This document shows positions 42,753-49,057 of a stretch of 64,000 nt of DNA, piece after piece. Each line of letters begins with the position of its first letter. Position 1 is the stretch's first letter. Below the pieces are notes generated by a model. It searched no databases and was not told the DNA's origin. It saw nothing but the letters and a program-made list of their open reading frames with translations. The position numbers were made by a program, and so were the translations under genes. Origin of the DNA: Saccostrea echinata (Eukaryota); the NCBI RefSeq assembly GCF_033153115.1, contig NW_026889801.1, positions 6,200,001 through 6,264,000 on the forward strand. Direction: 5' to 3'.

Positions 42753-45700
42753 ATGGTAAATACACGAGAATTTCACAGTACATTACAAATCTGAGGTCAT
42801 CATGTTGTAAAATTAATATGTTTGACCCCAGATATAATCATAACACATTTTGTAGCTTTTCATGTCCAATTTAGACGATATATAGAAATGTTTTCTGCCT
42901 GCATTTCAGAGATATTGTTTTTAAAAGGGCTTAGGTATTTTTAGTGGATAAATAATCGTAAAAATGTAAGAGAGTATTGCATATATGCAGATCTATACCA
43001 TAAGTAAAGTTATTTATTCCAGGGATTAATCTAAGTTTTGTTTGGGACAAACCCTTTTTGAATAAATGAATCCTCTTTGTACAACATGATGTTTCAACGA
43101 AAATTAACTTCTTCTGAAATACATTTGACATTTAACAGGGATAAACATTAACTCTTATATTCACTTGTTTCCGACAAGTGATCTGAAGATTTTACCTGCC
43201 CAAATGCAAAACTTGGACGCCCAAAATTAAGAAAGAAGAAAATGGTTAAAACTGTTTATCACTGTAAATGTTACATGTGATAGAAAAAGCAGGGTTCGAC
43301 ACAAACGTTAGTCCGTTAGTCTCAAACTAATAAAATCTGTGGCTAATTAGTCTGAACAGACCAGTAAAAATTCCTGGAAAACAATATGAATAATTTACCA
43401 ATTTCCGATTCTCCACAACTTTTACCGGAAAACCCCGATTTATTTTTAGCTTTCTAGCTTCTTGGCGGGTAGTTAGACAATTTCGAGTGAGTGCTTAATT
43501 TTTCGACTGATTGGTATGATGTAAAACGTTTTAGCTATATGACACATGAAAGAAAGATGTCAGACATTTTGGATGTAATGTAAGAGAAAAAGAACGAGAT
43601 CGGGAATACGATCGTACCCGTTGATCATGAGATTTCAACGAACCCGTGCTGTGGAATAAACCCTTTCAAGTAAATGCTTTGTTTATTTAATAAAAGTATA
43701 AATTAAAAAAAAAAAAAAAAAGACGTATATTGAAATGTTTATTTTTAAATTAATGTTGCAAAATATTGATGTTTCCTTTTTTTGACGGACTCATAAAATT
43801 GCATGCGGACTAGTAAATGTAAAGAAGCACTAGTCCGGCCGGACTAAAGCCTAAAAAAGTTAGTGTCGAACCCTGAAAAGTGTGACAAGATTCACTATTT
43901 TGCAAGTTCAGATATCAGATAAAAATTTTGATGGTATTCTTAAGTACATAAATGTATGTCACTTAAACATGTAAACACACACAACCATGCAGCCATACCC
44001 CCCCCCCCCCCCACCACCACCACCACCACCACCACCACCCCATTTCCTTTGTATAAAAAAATATAAAAAAAAATTTGATGGGATCCTTTTAATATGAATT
44101 CAGGGCTCGACATTAACGCTTGTCCGCTTGCCCGGTACCAGTGAAAAAAAATTACGGACAAGTGAATATTGCTGGGCACTTGTCCGATGGGACAAGTGCA
44201 TTTTAATGTAAAGGAGTCTTTAAATAATAATAAGATAATCGGTAGTTTCAAAACGGAAGCTGTACATAAAAACCGGACTTCGATCCCGATAGGGATCGCT
44301 ATTAATTGAGTTCACATTGGATCGGAATCGAAGTTCACTAATTGCATACCATTGAAAAGGCATGGAACTTACGAACGTAACGAAATTTGGTTCACTTGTG
44401 GACATTTATGTTGATGTCAGGACAGAAAGCCTAGATAAAATTTCGTTTTATGTGTTTGTTGTAAATATCAATAACATCGCTAATCAATCAAGCACATGTC
44501 ATGTGTAATGGACTTTATTTTAGTTTTCAAGTTGACAGTATTAGATCTTTATTGAAAAATTTTCGGACAAGTGAAGTTGAAGTTCGGACAAGTAAATGTC
44601 TTGGTCACTTGTCCGAATGGACAAGTAGGAAAAAAGTTAATGTCGAGCCCTGGAATTTTGATTTTCCGATAAAACTGTGAAGCAATATGCTAAAGGAAGA
44701 CAGTTGCTATAAAATGCACATATCTTGATTAGGATATGTTATATTTGTATGTTACTTATATTCTGTGAGTGAATTATGTAAATAATCTAATTTCCATACT
44801 AAGTAGGTAACAAAGTTGTTAGATGTAGAGTGTATTAACTATGAAAGAAAACAGAATAACCAACCGGATTTTTAAATAAAGTTATAATTTAGAAACGCTG
44901 CCAAGTAGTGATTCAGCAATAGTCGCCAAAAAATAATTGTTGAAAGGTTGGCAATACTGACAATCAATAGCATAGCAGCAAAATCAATAGTCGCTGTATA
45001 TAAATATGTATATCGTGTATATAGCTACTTTAAACCTAATGCTAAATCTTATATTATCTTTTTTTATGTGGTGTGTGTTTCCTTGTTTTTTGTACAAAGA
45101 AGACACACTGATTATTTATTTATGTTTCAAGGGAGGTCCTGAGTTCGAATCTCGGCCGCGACTGACCTAAGTCTATAAATAATGGGTAGCAACTGTTCCT
45201 TCGCCATGCGCTCGGCACTTTGAAGTGAAAGTTGCGGGTTCTCAGATGAGACCTTAAAAACCGAGGCCCCATGTCACGGCAGGCGTTGGCACAATAAAAA
45301 TCCCTCACTGCTCAATGGCCCTGAGTGCCGAGAAAAGGTCAAAATTTGAAGCCCTTCACCGGTATATGGTGATGTCTCTATATGAGTGAAAAATTCTCGA
45401 AGGGGACGTAAAACAACATACAGTCAATCTTACATGTGAACACATATAATGAATTTTTGTTCATTCACCTGTACTAAACAATACATTAAATATACTGAGT
45501 CAGAGAATAATTCATAAAAATGCTCTGCAAATTATGATTATAAGTATAGCTTCCCTAGATAAATGTTCTATTGTCAAAATGATGTCCTGTGCATATGGAG
45601 TCGGTTTTTGCTGAGGGCCTGTTCCAAGACACAGAAAGATGATTCTAACTGCAATTTTCTTAGAAAATGTCATATACTGAAAATGTCATATAGTATATCA

Positions 45701-48700
45701 ACTACAGTATGTAAATAGTTATTGCATATCAGCAAGTAAATAATGAATTTGGACATGTAAAAGTAACACTTGTTGGAAACTTGTCCAATGCACATGCAAG
45801 TTGATATTTTAGTTAATGTTGTACCCTGGGGTGTTTTTCTTTTAGGTCAGTTTGCAATATTGTCAACAACGCAGCTATTTTAATGAAGATTTATATATCT
45901 TGCGAAATAAAATTTGTATTTAAATAGTAGAATAAGCCAAGGGTTTTTGAAGAGAGGAGCATATCAGAAATGCACAAATAGTACAAATGGGCCACACAAT
46001 CATTTGTCTTTAAAATTTTATTATCTGTTGAACATTGTACTTACTATATGTACTTACTATATTTATTGTTTTTTAGGTCAACGTACCAAAATCAAGGAAG
46101 ACTTTCTGCAAGGGCAAAAAGTGCAAGAAGCACACCCTTCACAAAGTCACCCAGTACAAGACCGGAAAAGCCTCCCTCTATGCTCAGGGTTGGTTGTCAT
46201 TTTAATTTTTTACACTAATTTTCAGAAATGATCCTATTTTAATCAGTAATTATACTCGTAAATTAATCAAAAGATGTGATAGGCCTTTTCCCCTTGATGA
46301 TGGATTCAACATTAAAATACTTTTGAAAAATATTGGTCATTATTACAGTCATTGTCAAAAAACATAACTTGCCAATGGATGGGGAAAAAAGTTTGTCATC
46401 TCATTGAAAGCAAGTGGAGATCTTATCAGAAGGATTTAAAGTCTACAATGTCTAGAGAGAAGGAAAAATGAAGTAGTCAGTGATTCATTTTGATGTGCGT
46501 CCTGCGTAAATTACGCACAAATTTTGCTCAGGATGCATTATTTCAATAAATGTGCATCCCAATGGACGCAATAAATTTATAGAAGGACGTGTACTATTTT
46601 AAATTATATCGGTATAATCTGATTCAAAACTTGACCGATTGCATCATATCCACGTGCTAAGCGATATGCATGAACGATTTTAACAGGTATAAGGTTGCCA
46701 ACAACAGGTCAGATTTCACAACTGCAGTTAAAATCAATTATCAGAAAATATTTGAAAGTTAGATAGCATAGTTCGATTATCACTGATTATGTCTATACCG
46801 TGGAACGTTTCTGAAGCGAATACTATACCTTTGTATTTAAGCTGTAACCTGTATCATTGGTTTTTTTTTTTTTTTTGTTTTTTCTTACAAGCTAAGAAGT
46901 ATAAAATTTAATCATTTTTATTTCTGGCAATTTGTCATTTCTTCTTAAACTTTTTTTACTTCATTCTGCTTCTGTGCATTTTTAGGACTGATACAATGTG
47001 TGAGATCGTATGTACGATCTAAAAATAGAACCAAAGTGCACAGTGGACAATATATTATTTTTATGACACAAAATCATGTACTCTTACTTGGACCATTAAT
47101 AGTAAAAGTATAAATCATTCAAAGCTACAATAAAACATTTGCACTTTCGTGCAGTACCTTTTTTATTTCACCAGAATTTCCTGTGTAACATCTAATATAT
47201 GGTACCCTTGGATTTGGACGCATTGATTTCGGCACGGGACTCATTGTTGTCATTAAGAGGGGTCCTTTGGACCCATGATAACCATTTTCAAAATGAATCA
47301 CTGAGTAGTTAAAATTTACCGGTATATGGATATTTCTGTTGCTAGGAAAAAGAAGATATGACCGGAAGCAGAGTGGTTTTGGAGGTCAAACAAAGGTCAT
47401 CTTCAGAAAAAAGGTTGGTACCATTCACATTGTTTTTAAATTTGTAATAATTATATGTACTAGAATTCTTCAAGATATTGATAAAGAAGTGTTCCCACTG
47501 TCATTAGAGGACATGCCTTACATAATCGTCACAAAATAGCATAAATTTATTGTGTTTACAATAGTCACCCTTTTGTAAAAGACTAGAGAATATTTCATAA
47601 ATTTATATGTACTTGCCATTTTAAAAACAACTATTACTTCTATTTCAATAGAAAATGCATTTCTCTGCACCTATTATAAGCTCATTGTAGTAGAGGTACA
47701 GTCTTGACAGAGACTTTTTTTTTATCTGTTTGTTCACTTTCTTGATAGGAAGCTACTAGCAAAATTATTTTTCATTAAAATTTACTTCTTAATCACGTGG
47801 CTGGTGGTAGTTAATTCTTTTTTCTTGCATGCTTTCTTTCAAATTGGACTTGCTATTTTATTTTTGTGTTCTTCAGGCAAAGATTACAAGGAAGATTGTA
47901 CTCAGATTAGAATGCACAGACTGTAAATACAGAAAACAACTAGCCATCAAAAGATGTAAACACTTCGAGTTGGGAGGAGAGAAAAAGAGAAAGGTAATAA
48001 AAATATTTATTTCCTATCTAGCTTGTTTCATGAAATTTGATTGGTTAATAAGTCTTGTGTAAATTTCTGTGCACCCAGCTTGAGCTTTGGGTAAAAAACA
48101 TGACTTCACAATGATAGTTTCTCTATCTCAAATTGATTACTGCTTGCTAAGTAACATGACATTAGGATGCATTGAAGCACATACAGTTGAACTTTGGTAT
48201 ATCGAACACAGATATCTCAAATACCATGGATATGTCGAAGTGATTTCGAAGTCCCAACTACTTATTCTTTAATTTTTTTACCTTGGATATCTCAAGTCCT
48301 CAGATATCTCGAAGTTTTTTCTCAGTCCTACTGAGTTTGAGATAATGAGGCTTGACTGTAGTTAATTTTATTGTCAGTTTGAAACACTATTGATTGGACT
48401 TGGGTTTACAAAAAATGTATTTGCTTGCATACACTGTAGGAATTAAATTATTTATTCAGGTCCAGTCAGGGGTGTACAGGAATTTATCCCAGGTGATTTT
48501 CCATACACCCTTTGGCCTCTGGGTGTAATGGGTGTTTGGCATAAAACCCAGGATTAATCCCCATACACCCTTGATTGAACCTGGATAACTAATATAATGT
48601 ATAGGATCATAAAAGTAACTAATTGTGCACTCAACTAGAGCTAAAAAGAATGAACATTTGCCAATGAATAGCAGATGATGAATATATACATTTTAAATTT

Positions 48701-49057
48701 GCAAACACTTGGCTGGTTTGCTTTTAAATCCTTGATTGAATTGCCTCATTGAATGTATAAATGATTTCCCCACCTAGTGTTTAAGAGGCAAATTATACTG
48801 TACTGCCTTTTCACTACAGTCTCGAAACAGCTTTGTTACTGTTGCTTTAAAATGTTATTTCATTTTAAAGCAGTCTTAAATAAGTAAATACATAAATAAT
48901 AATATCAATATGTGTATTAAGATTGGACAGAGACACCTGTACATGTAAATTGAGTGACAAGATTTATGATCAGTATAATTGTAATTTATTCCTAGAAATT
49001 ATGTAATTAATGTTTCTTTTTTATTTCATTTTACAGGGACAGATGATTATGTTCTAA
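42753..49057 (+). CDS. RPL36A: 60S ribosomal protein eL42 (L36a/L44), 106 aa
   Basis: Exons 42753-42755 (ATG), 46077-46188, 47346-47413, 47877-47993 and 49037-49057 give [112 protein letters not shown] at 49082. Confidence 0.96.
43290..43875. mobile_element. MITE with 5-bp TSD (AAAAG)
   Basis: TIRs CAGGGTTCGACAC and GTGTCGAACCCTG, flanked by AAAAG on both sides. Confidence 0.85.
44101..44652. mobile_element. MITE with 5-bp TSD (GAATT)
   Basis: TIRs CAGGGCTCGACATTAAC and GTTAATGTCGAGCCCTG, flanked by GAATT, with subterminal ggacaagt repeats. Confidence 0.88.
45128..45420 (+). mobile_element. tRNA-derived SINE (5'-truncated)
   Basis: B-box GAGTTCGAATCTC; the 3' tail GAGTGAAAAATTCTCGAAGGGGACGTAAAACAAC is shared with the SINE at about 17560. 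Confidence 0.7.
46478..47303. mobile_element. Non-autonomous DNA transposon with 6-bp TSD (AGTAGT)
   Basis: 16-bp perfect TIR CAGTGATTCATTTTGA / TCAAAATGAATCACTG, flanked by AGTAGT. Confidence 0.85.
48184..48358. mobile_element. Tc1/pogo-like MITE
   Basis: TA-CAGTTGAAC ... GCTTGACTG-TA, with internal gatatctcga-type repeats. Confidence 0.7.
48452..48594. mobile_element. Foldback MITE
   Basis: ttattcaggtccagtcaggggtgta ... tacacccttgattgaacctggataa; a second copy lies at about 35966. Confidence 0.7.

What the first reader, a model, noticed from the sequence alone, without database searches (positions are those of the whole stretch)
47396..47398. eL42 has Val at position 56, the cycloheximide-resistance site
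Seen: the spliced protein reads [11 protein letters not shown] (codon GTC). Counting from Met this is residue 56, and the change needs two substitutions from any Pro codon. Established: this residue is Pro in yeast Rpl42 (P56) and most eukaryotes, and P56Q confers cycloheximide resistance because the loop lines the 60S E-site drug pocket. The gene looks functional (TOP tract, intact introns, polyA signal). Inference: this filter-feeder's ribosome may be naturally resistant to E-site inhibitors, including marine natural toxins that bind there.
Basis: partly seen in the sequence, partly recalled or inferred. Interest (0 to 1): 0.78.

Follow-up and report, generated by a model that had tools for sequence, protein, structure and literature searches.

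The report
Recurring drug-site swap in marine ribosomes
This oyster's only gene for ribosomal protein eL42 has valine instead of the usual proline in the pocket where cycloheximide binds, as do all other oysters examined and several unrelated sea-floor animals, which likely makes their ribosomes partly resistant to that class of drug and may be a repeated adaptation to natural toxins.

Summary
In detail: codon 56 is GTC (Val) in an intact eL42 gene. The assembly's second haplotype encodes the same protein, no Pro56 paralog was found, and spliced transcript contigs carry GTC. The change is not private to this animal. All 15 listed members of the oyster cluster (Saccostrea, Ostrea, Magallana, Crassostrea) have Val; pearl oyster, mussels, scallops and ark clam keep Pro. 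On a hand-built 102-tip animal tree the site changes 10 times: Val seven times (oysters, venerid clams, Ciona, Styela, Saccoglossus, Halichondria, one Tubulanus paralog), Leu in siboglinid worms, Ala in Novocrania, and the classic resistance residue Gln in three bryozoans. All 10 changes lie on marine-benthic branches (48% of tree length; post hoc, search biased towards Val), and Val/Leu travels with Arg59. Resistance was not measured. The known Gln mechanism is a polar clash that Val cannot make; a recalled yeast saturation study ranks Val as moderate resistance. Broad resistance to marine E-site toxins is unsupported: Gln56 ribosomes stay phyllanthoside-sensitive. Verdict: a real natural variant of a known drug site, with a convergent pattern that my literature searches did not find described; toxin-driven selection is plausible but unproven.

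The parts
47396..47398 (+). Codon 56, GTC (Val); Pro in most eukaryotes
   Evidence: GTC in both haplotypes
42753..42755 (+). eL42 exon 1 coding part (ATG, then GT donor); inferred
   Evidence: identical in the other haplotype; no joint seen
42731..42739 (+). Pyrimidine tract, candidate 5' TOP (label recalled)
46077..46188 (+). eL42 exon 2
47346..47413 (+). eL42 exon 3, the E-site loop (K55, V56, F58, R59)
47405..47407 (+). Codon 59, Arg (His in the pearl oyster); accompanies every Val/Leu56 in the tree
47877..47993 (+). eL42 exon 4, with oyster Ile64 (47883-47885; Thr in 94 of 102 tips) and Arg66
49037..49057 (+). eL42 exon 5 coding part with stop codon
49082..49087 (+). AATAAA polyadenylation signal

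Best explanation
Val56 is the fixed state of the single, spliced oyster eL42 gene and has arisen repeatedly in sea-floor invertebrates; it likely weakens binding of cycloheximide-type (glutarimide) inhibitors to a moderate degree, and it was possibly selected as target-site resistance to natural E-site toxins. Shown: the residue, gene integrity, single locus, presence in all oysters examined, recurrence, pairing with Arg59. Inferred: replacing the proline ring, which lies 3.1 A from the drug in yeast, with a branched, flexible residue reshapes the pocket without the polar clash that Gln makes, so the shift would be smaller than the roughly 1000-fold of Candida; Arg59 would compensate for the loosened loop. 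My odds: lowered glutarimide sensitivity about 0.7; toxin-driven selection as the cause about 0.35-0.4.
For: Residue and gene. Oysters: 15 of 15 listed members of a 17-member cluster have Val (one is labelled Clostridium and is probably oyster contamination). Census: of 447 proteins held, 413 had the full motif: Pro 374, Val 29, Leu 6, Gln 3, Ala 1; 34 were dropped. Tree of 102 tips: 10 changes at site 56 while 55, 60-63 and 51-53 never change; 7 are Pro-to-Val, a two-base change; 10 of 10 fall on marine-benthic branches that hold 48% of the length (p 0.0007; 0.028 after 42 columns), and 7 of 10 on suspension feeders (32%, p 0.014). Three bryozoans carry the proven resistance residue Gln. Both one-step intermediates, Ala and Leu, exist in animals. 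All 14 Val and 2 Leu tips have Arg59; in Lophotrochozoa 4 of 4 Val/Leu changes share a branch with His59Arg (p 0.008-0.03). The other Pro site (P5) is Pro in 349 of 350 matches. Literature: K55, P56 and F58 are the critical drug contacts; P55Q costs C. elegans nothing visible. Recalled, not seen: Bae et al. 2018 (doi 10.1093/femsle/fny066, listed in references, not held) class Val, Leu and Ile as moderate resistance in yeast.
Against: No drug assay on any Val56 ribosome was seen; the only Val data are recalled. The Gln mechanism does not transfer to Val. In a choanoflagellate even P56Q helped only below 10 ng/ml. The habitat classes were drawn after seeing the data, two of three protein searches were Val-biased, topology and lifestyle labels are from my own knowledge, and the suspension-feeder signal does not survive correction (0.60). 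Two Leu rows were left out as probable pseudogenes (Teladorsagia fragment P0145, Myotis P0161); with them it is 10 of 12, p 0.014. Other columns also show repeated two-base changes (16 cases of 3 or more). Many filter feeders keep Pro. The AU test does not reject a single Val clade (p 0.146, 97 columns). No selecting toxin is identified, and uL15 Q38/H39 is unchanged.
Confidence: 0.55

Rival explanations
1. Tolerated substitution: once Arg59 stabilises the loop, Pro56 can drift through Leu or Ala to Val; any drug resistance is a by-product and no toxin selected it.
For: Val/Leu always sits with Arg59; P55Q is phenotypically silent in C. elegans; neighbours 57 and 59 toggle often (11 and 15 steps) and also mostly on marine-benthic branches (9 of 11, 11 of 15); many filter feeders keep Pro.
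Against: 50 tips have Pro with Arg59, including vertebrates, arthropods, nematodes and flatworms, and none of these lineages changed in the tree; 7 of 10 changes end at the same two-step residue; Gln and Ala arose on a His59 background.
Confidence: 0.28
2. Selection on ribosome function itself: the loop touches the tRNA end in the E site, and Val56 with Arg59 (and Ile/Val64) would tune tRNA release or stability under intertidal hypoxia, salinity or temperature stress.
For: Oysters and Ciona also change Thr64, otherwise constant (94 of 102); changes cluster around one loop; eL42 lines the E-site tRNA pocket.
Against: Carriers span subtidal, vent and sediment habitats; intertidal mussels keep Pro; no kinetic data.
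Confidence: 0.15
3. Assembly error, pseudogene or silent paralog beside an expressed Pro56 copy.
For: Tubulanus holds both a Pro and a Val copy, so such pairs exist; genome searches score only the best candidates.
Against: Both haplotypes, spliced contigs and 15 of 15 oyster entries have Val; no second locus in 4 searches.
Confidence: 0.02

Closest known systems
Natural eL42 (L41/Rpl42) P56Q of Candida albicans and Kluyveromyces lactis
   Same: Same residue, natural, fixed, in the working ribosomal protein (PMC9132455; PMC12132315).
   Different: Val instead of Gln, so no oxygen-oxygen clash; an animal; no measured resistance. The bryozoan Gln56 seen here is the exact match.
Engineered or selected residue-56 alleles (P55Q in C. 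elegans, P56Q in Salpingoeca and Arabidopsis; yeast saturation series of Bae et al. 2018, content recalled)
   Same: Show that the site controls cycloheximide sensitivity in animals, choanoflagellates and plants.
   Different: Laboratory alleles; here the change is natural, old and comes with Arg59, Ile64 and Arg66.
C. elegans rpl-41 Pro-to-Leu psymberin resistance (Wu et al. 2012; recalled, not held)
   Same: An aliphatic residue at what I recall as the same proline resists a sponge-derived E-site toxin.
Convergent target-site toxin resistance (sodium-channel saxitoxin/tetrodotoxin and Na,K-ATPase cardenolide substitutions; recalled)
   Same: Same site changed repeatedly in unrelated lineages.
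   Different: There toxin, exposure and resistance are shown; here none is.

Membership tests
eL42 / Ribosomal_L44 (PF00935) | Profile match over the curated cut-off | tested here: met
   Window exons over cut-off; oyster P0134, 2 differences from the window protein, 110 bits
eL42 / Ribosomal_L44 (PF00935) | Intact, spliced, single functional gene | tested here: met
   exon 1 inferred
Residue-56 cycloheximide-resistant eL42 alleles | Non-Pro residue at 56 in the working copy | tested here: met
Residue-56 cycloheximide-resistant eL42 alleles | Gln side chain that clashes with the glutarimide oxygen (the solved mechanism) | tested here: not met
   Residue is Val; mechanism from PMC9132455
Residue-56 cycloheximide-resistant eL42 alleles | Raised cycloheximide IC50 of the ribosome | not testable with these tools
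   No assay found; Val as moderate resistance in yeast is recalled only
Convergent target-site toxin resistance | Independent origins in unrelated lineages | tested here: inconclusive
   7 Val origins on the species tree; nearest non-sister neighbours are mostly Pro relatives; gene tree needs 5 changes but AU p 0.146
Convergent target-site toxin resistance | Association with an exposed ecology | tested here: inconclusive
   10 of 10 marine benthic, post hoc; suspension feeding 7 of 10, not robust
Convergent target-site toxin resistance | Identified toxin, exposure and fitness gain | not testable with these tools
   none

The most novel reading that the evidence does not exclude
Residue 56 of eL42 is a hotspot of convergent target-site resistance in sea-floor animals: oysters, venerid clams, ascidians, an acorn worm, a sponge, a ribbon worm paralog, siboglinid worms, bryozoans and a brachiopod have each, about nine to ten times in all, remodelled the 60S E-site pocket against microbial or symbiont-made translation poisons (glutarimides, lissoclimides, pederin-type polyketides), giving the ribosome its own version of the cardenolide and saxitoxin resistance stories and a candidate answer to how toxin-bearing ascidians and sponges protect themselves.
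Probability: 0.33. Interest if true: 0.88.

Novelty: new variant of a known kind. Interest (0 to 1): 0.67.

Why it matters
The large-subunit drug pockets are treated as uniform across eukaryotes; the broad survey that says so examined rRNA residues (10.1101/2024.11.28.625670, parts 1-2 of 4 read). Natural Val, Leu, Ala and Gln at the key protein residue in farmed and model animals (oysters, clams, Ciona, Bugula) would mean that cycloheximide-based ribosome profiling, protein half-life and energy-budget work in them may under-inhibit translation. A 2025 lissoclimide paper states that nothing is known of how producing ascidians and molluscs resist these toxins (PMC12012676); this pattern makes that question directly testable in yeast.

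Tried and rejected
Assembly error and Pro56 paralog: rejected. Oyster contamination as source of the other Val sequences: rejected, they are 79-88% identical to the oyster protein. One ancient Val paralog: disfavoured but not rejected by AU. Filter feeding as the single correlate: weak. A second resistance change in uL15 (Q38/H39): absent. No run on record as RNA was listed; a closer laying of contigs on the codon was not obtained, so rare alleles at the codon remain unchecked. Paper searches (10); none listed a report of Val56 in animals or of oyster cycloheximide sensitivity; one search was swamped by p56lck; only listings were seen for most hits, and the library lacks most subscription journals. 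Passages that gave nothing: PMC2108483, PMC9661190, PMC13326754, PMC11251625, PMC6716058; PMC2890537 used emetine in Bugula and does not mention cycloheximide (76). Not held. Supplements of the bioRxiv rRNA survey were not seen and might touch protein residues. No structure prediction was run: no drug-bound coordinates were available, so it could not decide anything. Echinoids, amphioxus, cockles and razor clams were not among named hits.

Full report
Observation. Window 47396-47398 is GTC. Five exons with GT..AG introns give a 106-aa eL42 with Val at residue 56 (one search was a first attempt with two exon borders one base off). The five PDB alignments printed all have Pro at that place. From residue 2 on, the protein is identical to three Saccostrea entries, so the animal is a rock oyster; those entries are not counted as independent support, since they may include this genome's own models.

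Is it the working gene? Two exon queries, the Pfam family and a Pro56 pearl-oyster protein each found only two places in G000. The second (C39) is collinear with window 32-50 kb including introns and differs at 5 synonymous codons only; codon 56 is GTC there too. It is the other haplotype. Contigs from 4 runs (at most 3 samples, 2 studies; RNA status guessed by the tool) join intron 2 in 3 runs, intron 3 cleanly in 2 and intron 4 in all 4, and letters ahead of exon 4 in run X5 include the GTC. The table of differences was cut, so it cannot exclude a rare allele. Exon 1 is inferred from an ATG-GT behind a pyrimidine tract; one contig shows another leader that was not found in the window or genome.

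Distribution. Three protein searches and three cluster look-ups gave 447 proteins; 413 had the full motif: Pro 374, Val 29, Leu 6, Gln 3, Ala 1, and 34 fragments or odd variants were dropped. Each search listed only its best 120 hits (of 671, 2187 and 6363), two were built to favour Val, and clustering hides members, so these are not frequencies. Val: 15 of 15 listed members of the oyster cluster, Ruditapes, Mercenaria, two Ciona, Styela, Saccoglossus, Halichondria, one of two Tubulanus copies, and six unnamed entries. Leu: Ridgeia, Lamellibrachia, one mislabelled siboglinid-like entry and two probable pseudogenes. Gln: Watersipora, Bugula, Flustra. Ala: Novocrania. Close relatives keep Pro: Pinctada, Mytilus, Pecten, Mizuhopecten, Tegillarca, Solemya, Mactra, Mya, Dreissena, unionids, Ptychodera, Glandiceps, Clavelina, Corticium, Lingula, Arenicola.

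Convergence. I placed 102 named animal sequences on a species tree written from my own knowledge. Site 56 needs 10 changes: Pro-to-Val 7 times (the two ascidian cases could be one gain and one reversal), Leu, Gln and Ala once each. Residues 51-53, 55 and 60-63 never change. All 10 changes fall on marine-benthic branches, which hold 48% of tree length (p 0.0007); this is the highest share among 42 variable columns, tied with column 69 (5 of 5); corrected for 42 columns p is 0.028. For suspension feeders it is 7 of 10 against 32% (p 0.014, 0.60 corrected). Keeping the two probable pseudogene rows gives 10 of 12 (p 0.014). The classes were chosen after seeing the data. With sites 56 and 59 removed, Saccoglossus is nearest to Pro hemichordates, the Tubulanus Val copy to its Pro paralog, and the venerids (after each other) to Mactra; Halichondria's nearest is the Val-bearing Styela. 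A 42-row gene tree needs 5 changes, but the AU test does not reject one Val clade (p 0.146). All 16 Val/Leu tips have Arg59, against 13 of 38 marine-benthic Pro tips; in Lophotrochozoa the 4 Val/Leu changes all share a branch with His59Arg (p 0.008 to 0.03). Oysters and Ciona also change Thr64.

Mechanism. PMC9132455 (parts 1-2 of 4 and a supplement search read): cycloheximide binds mainly rRNA, lies 3.1 A from the Pro56 ring, and Gln56 excludes it through a clash with the glutarimide, giving about 1000-fold resistance in extracts, while phyllanthoside still inhibits. Passages of the choanoflagellate paper name K55, P56 and F58 as the critical residues and show only a modest gain from P56Q. 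P55Q gives full resistance at no visible cost in C. elegans (passages) and works in Arabidopsis (passages). Lissoclimides bind the backbone of Pro56 and Phe58 (passages). A review table lists pederin-type compounds, tedanolides and lissoclimides as 60S E-site binders (passages). Val cannot make the Gln clash. I recall that Bae et al. 2018 tested all 20 residues at 56 in yeast and classed Val, Leu and Ile as moderate resistance; the paper is cited in the reference lists seen but was not held. I infer a moderate, drug-specific loss of glutarimide binding, with Arg59 as a compensating change. The oyster's uL15 keeps Q38/H39.

Comparison and novelty. It works like the natural fungal P56Q alleles but is not a member of that mechanistic class. 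The rRNA survey (parts 1-2 of 4) calls large-subunit sites nearly uniform but, in what I read, treats rRNA only. My ten searches listed no report of natural Val56 or Gln56 in animals; the library lacks most subscription journals. Earlier notes of this scan held nothing on this sequence and one unrelated divergent eL42 copy in Naegleria.

Verdict. The residue is real, old and family-wide. Moderate cycloheximide resistance is likely but unmeasured; broad resistance to marine E-site toxins is not supported. The recurrence in marine benthic lineages, with textbook Gln56 in bryozoans, is the surprising part and is cheap to test. Interest 0.67; new variant of a known kind.

Noticed in passing
proteins P0350, P0440, P0441: Three cheilostome bryozoans (Watersipora, Bugula, Flustra) carry Gln56, the proven cycloheximide-resistance residue, in an animal.
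   Followed up: partly
proteins P0378 and P0382: The ribbon worm Tubulanus polymorphus has two eL42 copies 96% alike outside sites 56 and 59, one Pro56/His59 and one Val56/Arg59: a natural pair for testing.
   Followed up: partly
proteins P0270, P0273, P0385, P0342: Siboglinid tubeworms have Leu56 and the brachiopod Novocrania Ala56, the two one-step intermediates between Pro and Val.
   Followed up: partly
window 42575-42613 (-), 40531-40662 (-), 39613-39768 (-): A thiolase gene (Pfam Thiolase_N) starts about 140 bases from the eL42 ATG, head to head; a GCGCATGCGC palindrome at 42713-42722 (NRF-1-like, label recalled) lies between them, suggesting a shared promoter.
   Followed up: partly
G000:C39:1549409-1562892 versus window 42753-49057: The two haplotypes differ strongly in intron length: intron 2 is about 290 versus 1157 bases and intron 3 about 7.9 kb versus 463, from large insertions; the haplotig is kept as a separate contig.
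   Followed up: no
window 46076 (run X1): A contig carries a 5' leader unlike the predicted exon 1 apart from the last bases before the ATG; not found in window or G000, so perhaps a related species or a divergent allele.
   Followed up: partly
proteins P0132 and P0375: An oyster eL42 is deposited under Clostridium perfringens and a siboglinid-like one under Bacillus thuringiensis: probable database contamination.
   Followed up: no
window 45130-45430 and 48180-48360: Intronic repeats with very deep, mixed contig cover, probably abundant interspersed elements.
   Followed up: no
protein P0438: An unnamed marine entry with the two-residue gap seen in echinoderm and hemichordate eL42 also has Val56, hinting at a further origin.
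   Followed up: no
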